This document shows positions 5,916 to 49,442 of a DNA stretch of 64,000 bases, one piece after another. The notes under the pieces are model-generated. The model saw only the letters and a program-made list of their open reading frames with translations. It was not told the DNA's origin and made no database searches. The stretch is from Candidatus Heimdallarchaeota archaeon. GTDB lineage: Archaea; Asgardarchaeota; Heimdallarchaeia; Hodarchaeales; Hodarchaeaceae. A program made the translations under genes and the position numbers. The stretch is taken from contig DXJL01000104.1 of NCBI GenBank assembly GCA_019057635.1, positions 1-64,000 on the forward strand. Reading direction: 5' to 3'. Positions within the stretch are counted from its first letter, which is position 1. The number at the start of each line of letters is the position of its first letter.

Positions 5916-5944
5916 AGTGTGATAAGAAATTGCCATAGTACTAC

Positions 5945-6037
5945 CTTTCTCTTGTTGCTAACCTGCCGGATAGCGGATGTGTGACTCATCCTGTCCAGAA
6001 CTATTTTCCAAATAGTTGTCTGACAAATCTAGTCATG
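5945..6037 (+). mobile_element. Right-end relic of the TnpB/CATG element (tnpB 3' end, putative omegaRNA region and TIR)
   Basis: GGATAGCGGATGTGTGACTCATCCTGTCCAGAACT...GTTGTCTGACAAATCTAGT-CATG is near-identical to the reverse complement of ~31895-31965 and to 49283-49374. No left end found upstream. Confidence 0.85.
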
Positions 6038-31344: not shown

Positions 31345-31874
31345 TAACCCTCATTTTCTCAATGTGCAGCAAATTGAGTTTGTAATAAGTTCAGATTCCA
31401 TTGTTTCTATACTAATATAATCTGTAGTATTCATTTGAAAAGATTTTCTAAAATTTGAATCCAGATTTGAAACCAGAAATGGTAAAGAACTCATTATTGT
31501 TCCACCATGACTGACTGTAATAATTCTTGCATTAGAATTATCTGAATATCTCGTTTTCATAGAATCCAGATAATTTCGAATTCGAGTAATTATTTGCAAA
31601 AGTGATTCCCCCCAGGCAATGAAGTATTAAGATTTTCTTTCTCAAACCATTCTTTCCAGAGATCCATAAACATAGACCAACTAGTTGGATCGGATTTGCC
31701 TTCTAACTTTCCTACACTGAATTCTACAAGCCTTGAGTCAATTTCATAGTTTAATTCAAGTTTATTTGATAAAATATCAGCTGTTTCCACTGCTCGCTTA
31801 AGCGGATTACAATAAATTTTATCAAAGCAGGAATAAGCTCTTTTTAGTCGTTCAGCAAGCGACTTGACCTGCAT

Positions 31875-32010
31875 TATCCCCCTGTCTGTAAGTCCATGAC
31901 TAAATTTGTCAGACAACTCTGGAAAAAGAGTTCTGGACAGGATGAGTCACACATCCGCTATCCAGCAAGTGAGCCACCACTGAAGGTGAACTGACTGTAG
32001 GGATTACTTG
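31875..32010 (-). ncRNA. Putative omegaRNA (reRNA) overlapping the tnpB 3' end, with its guide taken from the flank
   Basis: TnpB guide RNAs are known to derive from the element right end. This segment is the part conserved in all three copies. Boundaries are estimates. Confidence 0.55.
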
Positions 32011-33314
32011 GCTGCTGTTAATATACCGCTGCAGGATATTACAGGCAGCATTATAATCAGCATTCAGGTGATGACCACATTTACGACAACAGAAGCATCC
32101 GCGCGATTTCCGGTTACGTTTGTCTACATAGCCACACTGACTACATTGTTGGGAGGTATACGCCTCATTTACGCGCACTACCGTCATCCCCACAAGTTTC
32201 GCTTTATACTCGAGCATTTTAATAAATTTGAAGAAGGGGATTTGAACAAAAGACTGATTGGTACGTTTTCCTAAGTTACAGTGGTGTTTCCACCTGGCAT
32301 TGTAACCGATGACCAATGTCTCGATATTGTGCTGTAAACAGTAAGTAATAATTCGGCGGGAGGTTTGATGGAAGAAATTCTGAAGGCGGTTCATCCGCAC
32401 TCGCTGAAGACCTTGAATCCGGCGAGTGGTAAACTGTTGATTGTGAGTGGTTGCTAGCGATCGATAATGGGCCAGTTGTTTGTTATACCACTGATTAATG
32501 GTCTTCCCCACCCCGCCTTTGACGAGTAAGCCGTCTGACGTAGTTACGAGGTTGTTAAGACCAAGATCTATTCCCATAGCTCGGGGAGAAGACGAATCAG
32601 AGGAGGGAAAAGGGAGAACTTGCACTTCATAGAGTAATTCTACCACAAATCGATCATAATACGGTACCAATCGAGCGCCCACACACGTTTCTACAGTTAA
32701 TGGAAGGGTTCCGAGTGAAAAAGTGGGAAAGCCGCGTGCCATGAGATTCCGAGCAAAAAGAATCTGGTTCTCCCGAATTCGAACGCGGGGGCGGGGAAAG
32801 TTCAGCATGTGCAGCCCATTCTTGGGTTTATACCTGGGCGCTCGGGGCCGGGTCTGAAATTTGGTCGGATCGGTTTTCCATGCTTTCAGTCCATTGAAAA
32901 AGCTCCGCCAAATTTGTTCTACTTGACGGAGGACTTGTTGCGGTAAATAACTATCCGAAATGTCCTTTAATGCGAGATACACTGGTTCGTGCTTGAGGCG
33001 ATGATACAAGCTCGTGTATTGGAGCCATTTCCCCGTCTTAAAGAATTCTTGGCGCACCTCATAGGTGGCGCGATTATACAGATTTTTGGCACAGGTGCAC
33101 AAATCGGTAAAAATGGGCCGCGGTTTCATCTGCATTCGGATAGCTAACTGGGGGTGAGAGTGTTTCGTGGTACGCATTCCCATTCCAAGAAGACTCATTC
33201 GCTCTTATAAGCTCGAGACAGAGAGAGATCAGTGAAAATAACAAATGTGACGAAAATGAACCTTTTTTCTTCCTGGCTTAGAATAATAAATACTGGTTGT
33301 CAGACAAATTTGAT
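31899..33314 (-). mobile_element. TnpB-only element (1416 bp) with 19-bp imperfect TIRs and a CATG direct repeat
   Basis: Ends ACTAAATTTGTCAGACAAC (31899-31917) and GTTGTCAGACAAATTTGAT (33296-33314) match 16/19 as inverted repeats. CATG at 31895-31898 and 33315-33318. Removal restores KH-GL of the host gene. GC content is visibly higher than the flanks. Confidence 0.9.
31909..33198 (-). CDS. tnpB: TnpB RNA-guided endonuclease with rearranged RuvC-II
   Basis: AKNLYN, GIDLG (RuvC-I), VIGYN, VNEAYTSQ, CSQC/CRKC Zn finger and NADYNAACNI (RuvC-III). A TTATAA about 28 nt upstream suggests the true start is ATG 33177. Confidence 0.95.
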   Translation of the reverse strand: MSLLGMGMRTTKHSHPQLAIRMQMKPRPIFTDLCTCAKNLYNRATYEVRQEFFKTGKWLQYTSLYHRLKHEPVYLALKDISDSYLPQQVLRQVEQIWRSFFNGLKAWKTDPTKFQTRPRAPRYKPKNGLHMLNFPRPRVRIRENQILFARNLMARGFPTFSLGTLPLTVETCVGARLVPYYDRFVVELLYEVQVLPFPSSDSSSPRAMGIDLGLNNLVTTSDGLLVKGGVGKTINQWYNKQLAHYRSLATTHNQQFTTRRIQGLQRVRMNRLQNFFHQTSRRIITYCLQHNIETLVIGYNARWKHHCNLGKRTNQSFVQIPFFKFIKMLEYKAKLVGMTVVRVNEAYTSQQCSQCGYVDKRNRKSRGCFCCRKCGHHLNADYNAACNILQRYINSSQVIPTVSSPSVVAHLLDSGCVTHPVQNSFSRVV

Positions 33315-33498
33315 CATGTTTATATCCTGTATTCGAAAAAATCTTCATGATATTAGCTTTACTTTCGCCATGTCGTACAAAAATGATCTCCAGTTCATAG
33401 CCACCTTTTTAAATCAATAACTGTCCTTATGCCTGTGATGCTATTAAATTATGTTGATGTAGTAATTCATAATTTCAATTTTCCAATAATTCTTACTG

Positions 33499-47617: not shown

Positions 47618-49015
47618 TCAATCAGAGGTGGGTATGTTGGCAACAACTCGTCCATCATGTTTTAAGTCGATTAGATCACGCTGATGTAACGGCTTAAGCT
47701 GGTTTTCTAAAACGATTGGATCCATACCAACACTTTTGGCTAAGGCATCTAAGCTCATTTCCCCATTCATTCTAATAAGGATTGTAATCGGTGCATAGTT
47801 AGAAAGGGATAGAACTTGTTCAATATAATCATTAATATTTCTAACTCTGTTCAAAGTTTGAGTTGTGATCTTTGTTAGCTTTATTTCTGATTCACGATCC
47901 CTAGCTTCTTCTAATTCTGCGTTTACTTTATCTATTTCTATTTTATAATCTGTTAAATTTTTGGATATATTGTCATTTAGCTCTACGAGCTCCGTTATCT
48001 GTACATCCATTTGTGTTGCGTTATTTTCAAGTGAAGCATTTCTTGCAGATAATTCTGTAATTTGAGTATGCAATTCTTTCGAGATATCAGCTTTCTTTGT
48101 TTGAGCTTCTACCAGTTTAGCTTGTAGTTCTTCTATTTCCGCCTGGAATTGTTTGGTGTTATCTCTTAAGCGCGTTTTAGCTGATTCTTCATATTCTTGT
48201 TTAACTTTAGTTAATGAGATCTGGAACTGCTCGTTTTTAAATTTGTATTTTTCTTGTTGCTCTTGTATTAGCTTCTGATATTCTTCCTGTTGTTCAGAAT
48301 ATGCACTGGCCCAAGTTTCCATTGCTTCCGATGCTTGAGAATCCGTAAGAGAGTTTAATCGGGAAATTTCAGCAGTTTTGTCAATTAATTCCATCTGTAA
48401 GGAGGCATTTTTCTCTTCTAGCGTAACGAAATTTTCACCTTTATTATCTAACTTACTTGTTTTTTCACTCAATTCGTTTACAGTTTCTTCCAGTTGAAAT
48501 GATAAATCTTCATTTTTGGTTTTCTCTTCGATTATAAGATTCTGCATTTCTTTTTGATAACTGTCGAATTTTGACTCAATTTCAGCATACTCTTTCTCTT
48601 TCATCTTTAATTGTTCTTGCAAGGATTCATTTATATGATTCAATCGGGACAGATCATTAGTTTGATTTTTTAGCCTTTCTCGGTCGTATTTGGTAAATTT
48701 TTCGTTTGCACCTGTGTCATCGAACGTAACATCTTGGATTAACATATTTTTTATCCAATTAAATGAAGACATTGTAATACGTGTTAATTGGCTCTCGATA
48801 GACCTATTAACATCATCATCAAGTGATTTCAACAATGAATCAACATATACTCGATCTTCATGTCGTGTGATGATATTCGACCGATTCAGTAGGTCATTTT
48901 TGAATCCACTGAATGACACTCCCAATGTTTGAATTGCTATCTTTCTATCCTTCGCTAAATCCTTAATAAATTCTAACCCATATTTTCGTAATTTGGATTC
49001 ATTCGATTCATCCAT
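47618..49015 (-). CDS. Long coiled-coil protein with a C-terminal winged helix
   Basis: About 280 aa of E/K/Q/L heptads, then GEMSLDALAKSVGMDPIVLENQLKPLHQRDLI. The native ATG is the CATG at 49013-49016; the ATG at 49021 lies inside the MITE end. Confidence 0.8.
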   Translation of the reverse strand: MDESNESKLRKYGLEFIKDLAKDRKIAIQTLGVSFSGFKNDLLNRSNIITRHEDRVYVDSLLKSLDDDVNRSIESQLTRITMSSFNWIKNMLIQDVTFDDTGANEKFTKYDRERLKNQTNDLSRLNHINESLQEQLKMKEKEYAEIESKFDSYQKEMQNLIIEEKTKNEDLSFQLEETVNELSEKTSKLDNKGENFVTLEEKNASLQMELIDKTAEISRLNSLTDSQASEAMETWASAYSEQQEEYQKLIQEQQEKYKFKNEQFQISLTKVKQEYEESAKTRLRDNTKQFQAEIEELQAKLVEAQTKKADISKELHTQITELSARNASLENNATQMDVQITELVELNDNISKNLTDYKIEIDKVNAELEEARDRESEIKLTKITTQTLNRVRNINDYIEQVLSLSNYAPITILIRMNGEMSLDALAKSVGMDPIVLENQLKPLHQRDLIDLKHDGRVVANIPTSD

Positions 49016-49016
49016 G

Positions 49017-49370
49017 GTCATTTTTGTCCGACAAAGTGATTTTCTTCATATTCGCTGACCTCTCTCTCTCACAACCTTAAAAGGTCTCCCTCCCTCACAT
49101 CTTCAACCTTGAGGTGATGAAAAAAATACTTCCTTAGCTCCAAGGTCATAATCTCTTGTAACTTCGTTAGACGAGTTACCCGTCAAAGGCAAGAGAGCAT
49201 TGCCCCAAATATGTTGAAAATTATTGATGTTGTGGATGTCAAAACTAGATGTGTTTCAAGTAGTCCCAACGGAAAGCATACATTCTCTTGTTGCTAACCT
49301 GCCGGATAGTAGATGTGTGACTCATCCAGTCCATAACTATTTTTCTAAATAGTTGTCTGACAAATTTAGT
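49017..49370 (+). mobile_element. Internally deleted non-autonomous copy of the TnpB/CATG element (354 bp)
   Basis: Left end CATG-GTCATTTTTGTCCGACAAA, followed by CTGACCTCTCTCTCT (the full element has CTGATCTCTCTCTGT). The right end encodes QVVPTESIHSLVANLPDSRCVTHPV and ends GTTGTCTGACAAATTTAGT-CATG (49371-49374). Confidence 0.85.
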
Positions 49371-49442
49371 CATGAGACTTTTATGTAGAAACTGCAGCAA
49401 AAATATTCGCTAACAGATTGGTGATCCTGCAAATATTTTTAA

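What the first reader, a model, noticed from the sequence alone, without database searches (positions are those of the whole stretch)
31895..33318. TnpB element family with terminal inverted repeats and a CATG core, unlike classical IS200/IS605
Seen: 19-bp TIRs (16/19), each holding the palindrome TTGTCWGACAA. CATG occurs at both junctions but only once in the reconstructed empty site (AAA-CATG-GACTT). All five element ends in the window (three loci) abut CATG. No transposase is encoded. Joining the ends gives the near-palindrome GTTGTCTGACAAATTTAGT-CATG-ATCAAATTTGTCTGACAAC. Known: IS200/IS605 elements have no TIR or target duplication, and characterised IS607 elements recombine at a GG core. 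Inference: mobilisation in trans by a serine recombinase with a CATG-centred core, or by a DDE enzyme making a 4-bp duplication. Because CATG plus flank persists at the right junction, a pure CATG TAM would self-target, and the two left flanks (TATAAA, TTCATC) share nothing else obvious, so the self-avoidance rule is an open question.
Basis: partly seen in the sequence, partly recalled or inferred. Interest (0 to 1): 0.8.

Follow-up and report, generated by a model that had tools for sequence, protein, structure and literature searches.

The report
Orphan TnpB transposon landing at CATG
A small jumping gene of an Asgard archaeon carries only an RNA-guided nuclease between inverted ends and always sits at the letters CATG. 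No enzyme that could move it was found, and it is an unusual variant of a known kind of element rather than a new kind.

Summary
Window 31895-33318 is a 1.42-kb element that encodes only TnpB, on the minus strand. It has 19-bp inverted ends, each abutting CATG, and the unoccupied site holds a single CATG. Two orthologues and one metagenome contig that skips exactly 1420 bases show this.

The family has 76 ends in this genome: 5 full copies, 17 miniatures of about 360 bp and one 33-bp solo among the 23 paired elements. Among 400 Asgard genomes searched it is confined to one Hodarchaeales-type genus.

I found no Y1 transposase, Cas1 or IS630-type DDE in the three copy-rich genomes. The serine recombinases and IS4/IS5-type DDE elements whose ends I read have other ends. 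The mover therefore acts in trans and remains unidentified.

Three things are new here:
- The base before the left-end CATG is almost never T (3 of 77), while the right end carries T-CATG (33 of 35). This gives a testable self-avoidance rule that parallels IS607 (TGGG against TCGG).
- Junction variants suggest that only the central AT is shared.
- The right inverted repeat is part of the guide-RNA scaffold.

My best guess, at moderate confidence, is a site-specific recombinase of the serine type. A DDE enzyme is nearly as likely. Earlier notes of this scan describe the same family on another genome. I class it as a new variant of a known kind.

The parts
31895..31898 (-). CATG at the right-end junction (downstream of tnpB). 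Its first three letters on the minus strand are predicted to pair within the guide-RNA scaffold.
   Evidence: 31 of 36 right ends in the genome have CATG
31899..31917 (-). Right-end terminal inverted repeat (19 bp) containing the palindrome TTGTCNGACAA. It overlaps the last codons of tnpB and the 3' stems of the guide-RNA scaffold.
31895..32011 (-). Conserved omegaRNA (guide-RNA) scaffold block shared by full-length copies and miniatures. The inner hairpin shows compensatory changes.
   Evidence: alignment of 36 right ends; RNAalifold on 32 rows, pairs with GC/UA and CG/AU alternation; read depth far above the flanks at 31870-32017
31875..31894 (-). Predicted guide-template (flank just outside the right end). 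Its length is inferred, not shown.
   Evidence: Conservation among copies stops at CATG. By analogy with TnpB systems (PMC10711439, bioRxiv 10.1101/2023.11.20.567912).
31909..33198 (-). tnpB, 429 aa, intact. RuvC-I is D-L-G, the glutamate sits six residues before the zinc finger (E-alt arrangement), and RuvC-III D is present.
   Evidence: matches the D{P}G...E-x6-CxxC regex printed in PMC10711439
32499..32551 (-). Internal piece of the tnpB gene also kept, at about 83% identity, in the 3 miniatures whose matches were printed. Function unexplained.
   Evidence: blastn of miniatures against the full copy; depth peak 32462-32609 and joints 31963>32514, 32551>33297
33200..33259 (-). Left-end internal region: a TATA-like TTATAAG box upstream of tnpB and two or three direct TTCGTCA-like repeats, conserved among full copies. 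Role inferred (promoter and/or protein binding).
   Evidence: alignment of 13 left ends
33296..33314 (-). Left-end terminal inverted repeat (19 bp)
33315..33318 (-). CATG at the left-end junction, predicted to be the core of the TnpB target-adjacent motif
31590..31894 (-). Downstream part of the host histidine-phosphatase gene split by the insertion. The upstream part lies at about 33319-33400.
49013..49374 (+). 362-bp miniature (gene-less) copy with left end, promoter-like region, scaffold and right end
   Evidence: present at the same site in G002
5940..6037 (+). Right-end remnant (scaffold plus inverted repeat plus CATG) without a left end

Best explanation
This is a non-autonomous insertion sequence that carries only tnpB and its guide-RNA (omegaRNA) gene. 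It belongs to a family of full copies, about 360-bp guide-RNA-only miniatures and 33-bp solos in one genus of Hodarchaeales-type Asgard archaea.

Shown:
- It sits at CATG so that CATG stands at both junctions and once in the empty site.
- The ends are true inverted repeats.
- The right repeat plus CAT is built into the 3' stems of the guide-RNA scaffold, and copy-to-copy conservation stops after CATG.
- The preferred target is asymmetric: A at -3, non-T at -1, then CATG, then A-A.

Inferred:
- The element moves as double-stranded DNA through an enzyme supplied in trans.
- That enzyme is most likely a site-specific recombinase of the serine type.
- It would excise a circle in which right end, CATG and left end form a near-palindromic site, and exchange strands in the central AT of CATG. 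This would leave a scarless donor site.
- TnpB then cuts that empty site, using the right flank as guide and a motif of the form V-CATG.
- The occupied site is spared because the right end reads T-CATG.

The recombinase itself was not found.
For: Anatomy and empty site: (the joint skips 1420 bases, with 4 letters shared).

Family size:
- 76 ends in G000, of which 63 have CATG.
- 23 pairs: 5 full, 17 miniature, 1 solo.

No single-strand hairpins: end folds are -0.9 and -1.8 kcal/mol with z-scores +0.58 and -0.13. A Y1-linked relative, L106, folds at -5.1 and -5.5 kcal/mol.

Asymmetric target:
- T before the left CATG in 2 of 40 ends in G000, against 37.7% of all 8426 genomic CATG sites.
- T in 1 of 37 non-shared ends in five other genomes, p about 1e-6.
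- T inside the right end in 33 of 35.
- Left -1 against the complement of right +1 differ, chi-square p 4e-6. A two-fold symmetric transpososome alone would not give this.

Junction variants:
- 10 clean changes of C to T at the outermost base, plus one TCTG end, against 1 change of G to A at the innermost base, among 13 variant ends.
- In 5 of 5 pairs with a variant, only one side carries it. An exchange within AT predicts this; a 4-bp duplication does not.

Bases next to CATG: the three at the left end vary between subfamilies (ATC, ATT, GTT, GTC, AAC), while the block AAATTTGTC is kept. That fits a spacer next to a crossover better than a DDE terminus.

Precedent: the IS607-family CboIStron shares its GG core at both ends, and its TnpB tells TGGG from TCGG (bioRxiv 10.1101/2023.11.20.567912, passages read).

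Relatives: IS607-type TnpA lies directly upstream of tnpB in 10 of 76 non-family metagenome relatives, in L062 and in G000 contig C54.
Against: - No serine recombinase has these ends. G000 has two IS607-type genes; the one whose ends I read (C54) ends differently. G002 has one classical resolvase beside a reverse transcriptase. G031 has none, at 84% completeness.
- Characterised IS607 elements have a GG core, no terminal inverted repeats and direct-repeat binding motifs (PMC6188088).
- Four conserved letters, not two, flank every copy.
- The TnpB tree puts the family on its own long branch beside both the serine-linked and the Y1-linked groups, so phylogeny does not favour a serine partner.
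- The numbers of junction variants are small, and later mutation could explain them.
- No circle junction was seen, although contigs cannot show rare forms.
- Nearest miniature copies are only 80-94% alike, so the mover may be lost from these genomes.
Confidence: 0.4

Rival explanations
1. A cut-and-paste DDE transposase, supplied in trans, binds the inverted repeats. It inserts at the palindromic target CATG and duplicates either all four letters or the central AT, as IS630 does with TA inside CTAG or piggyBac with TTAA. The element would then be a non-autonomous member of a DDE family that has captured TnpB.
For: - The inverted repeats lie exactly at the termini and at equal distance from CATG.
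- The target is palindromic.
- Miniature copies are abundant.
- All six DDE-linked TnpB branches have inverted terminal repeats, and solo TnpBs with nearly identical ends are described (PMC10691335, section 9 read).
- Fanzor nucleases sit in TIR/TSD transposons whose repeat and duplication enter the guide-RNA scaffold (PMC10711439, passages read).
- IS4/IS5-type DDE genes exist in G000, G002 and G031.
Against: - Every pair of family ends in G000 encloses only tnpB or non-coding DNA.
- The one DDE_Tnp_1 element whose end I could read shows a different terminal sequence and is itself nested in a miniature.
- DDE_3 (IS630 type) is absent from all three copy-rich genomes. rve is absent from G031.
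- The target flanks are asymmetric, p 4e-6.
- Left-end terminal bases vary between subfamilies.
- Junction variants are uncoupled in 5 of 5 pairs. This argues against a 4-bp duplication, though not against a 2-bp one.
Confidence: 0.28
2. It is an ordinary IS200/IS605-type (IS1341 group) element moved as single-stranded DNA by a Y1 HUH TnpA encoded elsewhere. It would insert 3' of the target CATG, and its right end would happen to finish with CATG.
For: - The TnpB domains are those of IS605 OrfB.
- A 4-nt target with no net duplication fits peel-and-paste.
- The same palindrome lies near both ends. The deletion to a 33-bp solo mirrors the 52-bp terminal-only form of ISHwa23 in Haloquadratum (PMC3119063, passages read).
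- A relative at 27% identity (L106) has a Y1 gene, real hairpins and the same AGTCATG near its right end.
Against: - No Y1 gene in G000, G002 or G031. Only 2 of 22 genus genomes have one.
- The ends do not fold.
- The two ends are related as inverted repeats including the linker, not as same-strand hairpins.
- In the 55% relative L182 the palindrome is degenerate while the outer repeat and CATG are kept.
- The bases 5' of the right-end palindrome, where a Y1 guide sequence would lie, vary freely.
Confidence: 0.07
3. The mover is another or an unrecognised enzyme: an Asgard Cas1-type integrase, a tyrosine recombinase using the inverted arms with a short spacer around CATG, or a transposase family not yet described. 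It may sit on an unbinned plasmid or virus.
For: - Cas1-linked TnpB loci flanked by repeats are described for Asgard archaea (PMC10691335, section 9 read).
- All searches for known transposases with these ends came back empty.
- Binned genomes often omit plasmids and viruses (general knowledge).
Against: - Cas1 (PF01867) is absent from G000, G002 and G031 and present in only 3 of 22 genus genomes, none of them copy-rich.
- The downstream motif reported for the Cas1-linked loci is not next to the right end. The window holds 11 matches against 14.6 expected.
- Tyrosine-recombinase links reported so far go with inactivated TnpB (PMC10691335), whereas this TnpB keeps its catalytic residues.
Confidence: 0.15

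Closest known systems
IS607-family insertion sequences and their TnpB-only derivatives (IS607, IS1535, ISC1926, CboIStron)
   Same: - TnpB with a right-end guide RNA.
- The same short sequence at both junctions and once in the empty site.
- A scarless donor joint.
- Self and non-self are told apart one or two bases upstream of the shared core (TGGG against TCGG there; V-CATG against T-CATG here).
- IS607-type TnpA is found beside some TnpB relatives at 30-40% identity.
   Different: - No tnpA in cis, and none with these ends in trans.
- The core is CATG (perhaps AT), not GG.
- The inverted repeats are true, terminal and equidistant. IS607 elements have unrelated termini with internal repeats at unequal distances (PMC6188088).
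- The family is not nested in a serine-linked TnpB clade.
IS1341-type (TnpB-only) elements and PATEs of haloarchaea, e.g. ISHwa23 (PMC3119063)
   Same: - TnpB is the only gene.
- The family is multi-copy with gene-less derivatives.
- Deletion between the two near-terminal palindromes leaves a tiny terminal-only form (52 bp there, 33 bp here).
- Mobility occurs without a matching transposase in the genome.
   Different: Those elements are described as lacking terminal inverted repeats and as having hairpin-forming palindromes. Here the ends are inverted repeats that do not fold and the target is CATG.
DDE-transposase-associated TnpB branches with inverted terminal repeats (PMC10691335) and Fanzor1/Fanzor2* in TIR/TSD transposons (PMC10711439, PMC3627910)
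   Same: - Symmetrical ends.
- tnpB lies within 250 bp of one end.
- The repeat, plus a duplicated or shared target, is incorporated in the guide-RNA scaffold.
- Solo nuclease copies are presumed to be moved in trans.
- The RuvC-II glutamate is in the alternative position, as in Fanzors.
   Different: - No DDE gene was found with these ends.
- RuvC-I is D-L-G, not the Fanzor D-P-G.
- The host is archaeal.
- The target is CATG with asymmetric flanks.
- The supplementary files listing the ends of those branches could not be read, so identity with one of them is not excluded.
aCas1-associated TnpB loci of Asgard archaea (Cas1H-Asgard-1/-2, PMC10691335)
   Same: Same host phylum. The TnpB locus is flanked by repeats.
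   Different: There is no Cas1 in the three copy-rich genomes. The reported downstream motif is not present at the right end.

Membership tests
IS200/IS605 family (including the IS1341 group) | TnpB/OrfB protein (OrfB_IS605 plus zinc-ribbon/TNB domains) | tested here: met
   Pfam E-values 7.8e-18 and 1.2e-23
IS200/IS605 family (including the IS1341 group) | Y1 HUH transposase in the element or at least in the genome | tested here: not met
   No second ORF in the element. PF01797 gives 0 matches in G000 and 0 in G002 and G031; 2 of 22 genus genomes have one. Genome completeness is 84-93%.
IS200/IS605 family (including the IS1341 group) | Subterminal hairpins on the same strand at both ends; no terminal inverted repeats | tested here: not met
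   End folds are -0.9 and -1.8 kcal/mol with z-scores +0.58 and -0.13. A 23-nt inverted repeat is present.
IS200/IS605 family (including the IS1341 group) | Insertion 3' of a 4-5-nt target without duplication | tested here: inconclusive
   One CATG in the empty site and two around the element. This is compatible with this model, and equally with a shared core or a duplication.
IS607 family | Serine recombinase TnpA with an N-terminal HTH, in cis | tested here: not met
   Only tnpB lies between the ends. The resident IS607-type TnpA gene whose ends I read (C54) sits in an element with different ends; the C56 element's ends were not read.
IS607 family | GG at both termini and at the target | tested here: not met
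   CATG at 63 of 76 ends
IS607 family | Same short core at both junctions, single in the empty site, no further duplication | tested here: met
   no longer direct repeat in the flanks
IS607 family | Termini unrelated; internal direct-repeat binding motifs | tested here: not met
   The termini are inverted repeats. Short TTCGTCA-like direct repeats exist 60-85 bp inside the left end, but their role is unknown.
DDE-associated TnpB transposons (TIR type) | Inverted terminal repeats | tested here: met
   conserved in relatives down to 55% identity
DDE-associated TnpB transposons (TIR type) | A DDE transposase between the same ends somewhere | tested here: not met
   All 23 end pairs in G000 enclose tnpB or non-coding DNA. 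DDE_3 is absent. The one DDE_Tnp_1 element whose end I could read ends differently, and no family palindrome lies on the rve contig. Unbinned DNA was not searched.
DDE-associated TnpB transposons (TIR type) | Target-site duplication | tested here: inconclusive
   CATG stands on both sides, but variants are uncoupled in 5 of 5 pairs and concentrated at the outermost base.
aCas1-associated TnpB (Asgard) | Cas1 homologue adjacent or in the genome | tested here: not met
   PF01867 gives 0 in G000, G002 and G031; 3 of 22 genus genomes have one. Divergent Cas1 could escape the Pfam model.

The most novel reading that the evidence does not exclude
The family is moved by a transposase or recombinase class not yet linked to TnpB, or not yet described at all. 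That enzyme would recognise 19-bp inverted ends and exchange strands inside CATG with scarless excision. The family would then be an archaeal counterpart, in the closest known relatives of eukaryotes, of the eukaryotic Fanzor arrangement: inverted repeat plus target core built into the guide RNA, with the alternative RuvC glutamate.
Probability: 0.18. Interest if true: 0.75.

Novelty: new variant of a known kind. Interest (0 to 1): 0.5.

Why it matters
How TnpB-only insertion sequences move is an old loose end. They are very numerous, yet most have no matching transposase and no recognisable boundaries.

This family is well suited to the question because several things are exact:
- the boundaries are base-precise;
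- the target (CATG) is known;
- a natural empty site is on record;
- gene-less derivatives exist;
- the T-CATG against V-CATG rule can be tested with a standard TAM library.

Mini-element assays could then be used to screen candidate enzymes.

The family also shows, in an Asgard archaeon, a guide-RNA scaffold that has absorbed an inverted terminal repeat and the target core. That arrangement has so far been described mainly for eukaryotic Fanzors.

If the mover turns out to be an ordinary serine recombinase or DDE enzyme, the result is a useful extension of known families and not a new principle.

Tried and rejected
1. ORF-continuity test. Across all 23 insertions I removed the element with 0, 1 or 2 copies of CATG. 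The result was inconclusive (winners 1:2:2), because most insertions lie at gene ends or between genes.

2. Empty sites in close relatives.
- The miniature at 49013 is shared with G002. In G031 the site reads CATT, and the DNA beyond is too diverged to align.
- G002 lacks about 2 kb around the main element, so it is not a precise empty site.
- Contig C67 gave no clean junction.

3. An apparent 2.6-kb 'composite' in G002 (C8:61897-64531). It is a solo left end, a host membrane-protease gene and a 33-bp solo, not an autonomous element.

4. The G002 classical resolvase. It sits beside a reverse transcriptase and has no family end nearby.

5. Resident IS607 in C54 and its tnpA-less relative in C163. 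Their ends differ from this family.

6. IS4/IS5-type DDE elements. No matching repeats were found, and one is nested inside a miniature. PF13701 gave only sub-threshold hits to the same genes.

7. Circle junction or excision in sequencing runs. The runs were available only as contigs. No back-joint was listed, and this does not speak against circles. One RNA-library contig covers 32836-33065; that alone does not show transcription.

8. TnpB tree (140 rows, quick search). The family forms its own lineage, so the tree gives no verdict on the partner enzyme. I left out rows whose open frame was under 330 aa.

9. AGTCATG downstream of tnpB. It occurs in 13 of 121 loci, and none of the 9 with an upstream serine TnpA has it. 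The numbers are too small to mean anything.

10. Sources I could not reach.
- Supplementary files of PMC10691335, which list the ends of the DDE-linked branches, are closed, so identity with a listed branch cannot be excluded.
- PMC7307682 (Asgard Cas1) is not held.
- ISfinder could not be queried.

11. Literature searches. No paper held all of TnpB, CATG and 'transposon-adjacent motif', or all of TnpB, CATG and TAM. None of the 12 papers listed for Hodarchaeales, transposon and TnpB mentions Hodarchaeales.
Full report
**What is there**

Window 31895-33318 holds one long ORF, on the minus strand (31909-33198, 429 aa). It carries the Pfam domains OrfB_IS605 and Cas12f1-like TNB, so it is a TnpB.

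- The two ends are 23-nt inverted repeats, 87% complementary, each made of CATG plus a 19-bp arm.
- Each arm contains the palindrome TTGTCNGACAA. With up to 1 mismatch this occurs 6 times in the window against 1.87 expected, and 0 of 100 shuffles reach 6.
- In the sense of the gene, the left end is the 33318 side and the right end, with the guide-RNA scaffold, is the 31895 side.
- The window also holds a 362-bp gene-less copy (49013-49374) and a right-end remnant (about 5940-6037). All five family ends abut CATG.

**The empty site**

The element splits a histidine-phosphatase gene.

- When the element and one CATG are removed inside a script, the ORF becomes continuous. It then aligns without a gap across the junction to orthologues in two genomes of the same genus, at 64% and 58% identity.
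- Independently, a 370-nt contig of a public cold-seep metagenome run (X3) joins 31894 to 33315. It skips 1420 bases, and four letters fit either side.

So the insertion equals the element plus one CATG.

**The family**

The genome (3.19 Mb, 214 contigs, 91.6% complete) has 34 TnpB matches.

- Seven are near full length at 72-100% identity, and four of those have no internal stop.
- It has 76 ends within two mismatches of the end consensus: 36 right ends, 34 left ends and 6 unclassified. Of these, 63 carry CATG.
- They form 23 pairs: 5 of 1336-1424 bp, 17 of 355-365 bp and one of 33 bp. Thirty ends are unpaired, many at contig ends.
- No pair encloses anything but tnpB or non-coding DNA.
- Each miniature is 80-94% identical to its nearest relative, so there has been no very recent burst.

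Distribution:
- Record titles of the closest loci name Heimdallarchaeota and Hodarchaeota MAGs.
- Among 400 Asgard genomes, the end motif (up to 2 mismatches) is abundant only in one genus: G000 73, G002 75, G031 28, G018 13, G004 7. Elsewhere there are single hits, similar to the reversed-pattern control.
- Of 27 sampled left ends in G002, 24 have flanks unlike any G000 flank. Most insertions therefore postdate the split of these species.

**Guide RNA**

An alignment of 36 right ends shows a block of about 116 nt conserved in full copies and miniatures alike. Conservation ends exactly at CATG. RNAalifold on 32 rows (4 divergent rows dropped) predicts three helices:
- an outer helix GUGACU/AGUCAU that uses the CAT of CATG;
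- a middle helix that uses the right inverted repeat;
- an inner hairpin with compensatory changes, for example GC 9 / UA 19 and CG 19 / AU 9.

The outer two helices are invariant and so untested. The right repeat therefore serves two purposes.

The motif AGTCATG recurs downstream of tnpB in relatives at 27-34% identity, including one with a Y1 transposase. It is probably an old feature of the scaffold.

**TnpB protein**

The protein matches the 'D, non-P, G ... E-x6-CxxC' pattern printed in PMC10711439, which is the alternative-glutamate arrangement.

**Which enzyme moves it**

The three copy-rich genomes are G000, G002 and G031. Searches gave:

| Enzyme family | Result in the copy-rich genomes |
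|---|---|
| Y1 transposase | Absent in all three; present in 2 of 22 genus genomes |
| Cas1 | Absent in all three; present in 3 of 22 genus genomes |
| DDE_3 (IS630 type) | Absent in all three |
| Serine recombinase | G000 has two IS607-type genes; the element whose ends I read (C54) has neither the repeat nor CATG. G002 has one classical resolvase beside a reverse transcriptase. G031 has none. |
| IS4/IS5-type DDE (DDE_Tnp_1) | Present in all three; no matching repeats found, one element's end is different and it is nested in a miniature |
| rve | One gene in G000, four matches in G002, none in G031 |

The ends do not fold as single strands, unlike those of the Y1-linked relative L106.

A tree of 140 TnpBs places the family on its own branch, beside both serine-linked and Y1-linked groups. 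Phylogeny is therefore neutral on the partner.

**Clues to the mechanism**

1. The target is asymmetric.
- T precedes the left CATG in 2 of 40 ends in G000, although 37.7% of the 8426 genomic CATG sites are preceded by T.
- T precedes it in 1 of 37 non-shared ends from five other genomes, p about 1e-6.
- A follows the right CATG in 21 of 35 ends.
- The two sides are not mirror images (p 4e-6).

2. Inside the right end the base before CATG is T in 33 of 35 copies. A motif V-CATG would therefore let TnpB cut the empty site and spare the occupied one. Exactly this logic is published for an IS607-family IStron, TGGG against TCGG (bioRxiv 10.1101/2023.11.20.567912, passages read).

3. Variant junctions cluster at the outermost base.
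- There are 10 clean changes of C to T at the outermost base, plus one TCTG end, against 1 change of G to A at the innermost base.
- They are never coupled across an element, in 5 of 5 pairs.
- This is as expected if only the central AT is exchanged or duplicated.

4. The three bases next to CATG at the left end differ between subfamilies, while the block further in is kept.

Together these points lean towards a site-specific recombinase acting on a circle junction. A DDE enzyme with a 2-bp duplication, combined with TnpB-dependent retention, is not excluded.

**Comparison with what is known**

- Early literature states that TnpB-only elements lack inverted repeats and duplications (PMC3627910, passages read).
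- Later work describes six DDE-linked TnpB branches with inverted terminal repeats, solo TnpBs with the same ends, and Cas1-linked loci in Asgard archaea (PMC10691335, section 9 read).
- Haloarchaeal IS1341-type elements show the same palindrome-to-palindrome deletion to a tiny terminal-only form (PMC3119063, passages read).
- IS607 elements have a GG core and no terminal inverted repeats (PMC6188088, passages read).
- I found no paper that combines TnpB with a CATG motif.
- Earlier notes of this scan describe the same family on another genome, with three different filings: PATE/IS1341-like, IS607-type and Cas1-linked. My tests agree with the first, partly agree with the second and do not support the third.

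**Verdict**

This is a clean, well-bounded, orphan TnpB element family with inverted ends and a CATG target. I class it as a new variant of a known kind. Its self-avoidance rule is testable, and its mover is unidentified.

Noticed in passing
window 32499-32551 (minus strand; inside tnpB): A 37-53-bp piece from the middle of the tnpB gene is kept at about 83% identity in the 3 miniatures whose matches were printed. It shows a read-depth peak as high as the ends. It is far from the scaffold, and its role is unexplained (second RNA segment, binding site or shared ancestry).
   Followed up: partly
G000 contigs C104:23050-23082, C84:3071-3103, C152:1633-1665, C191:179-211; G002 C8:64499-64531: 33-bp 'solo' elements made of the left outer half, one palindrome and the right outer half, each between CATG-like tetranucleotides. 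They look like deletions between the two terminal palindromes, as reported for ISHwa23 in Haloquadratum.
   Followed up: partly
G000 C54:5867-7419 (locus L031): A complete IS607-type element: a 195-aa serine recombinase with an N-terminal HTH, plus a 402-aa TnpB whose zinc-finger cysteines appear lost. Its right end carries two ACATTTG-type direct repeats. A tnpA-less relative sits on C163.
   Followed up: partly
G000 C31:73996-74493 and C22:23762-24660 (contig ends): An IS4/IS5-type DDE element (ends beginning CAGTCTTCACG) has inserted into a miniature copy. The two halves lie on two contig ends, which probably explains the assembly break.
   Followed up: partly
window about 31460-33434 compared with G002 contig C34: The closest relative genome lacks about 2 kb here: the element, the phosphatase gene and some flank. 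This is a larger deletion or rearrangement, not a precise excision.
   Followed up: no
loci L073, L088, L214, L231 (bacterial relatives at 32-34% identity): TnpB-only elements of Bacillota and Selenomonadaceae carry inverted repeats and the motif GACTT(T/C)AGTCATG followed by a conserved GGGAGG-like flank. L073 shows CATG near both ends but at unequal distances from the repeat. Similar end designs may be widespread in bacteria.
   Followed up: partly
window 32836-33065: A 230-nt contig from a metatranscriptome library (run X19) matches the 5' half of tnpB with one difference. This hints at expression but does not prove it.
   Followed up: no
window 49013-49016: The miniature copy sits on a CATG that contains the start codon of the neighbouring minus-strand gene. 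Several other copies also lie at gene starts, which may simply reflect ATG within CATG.
   Followed up: no
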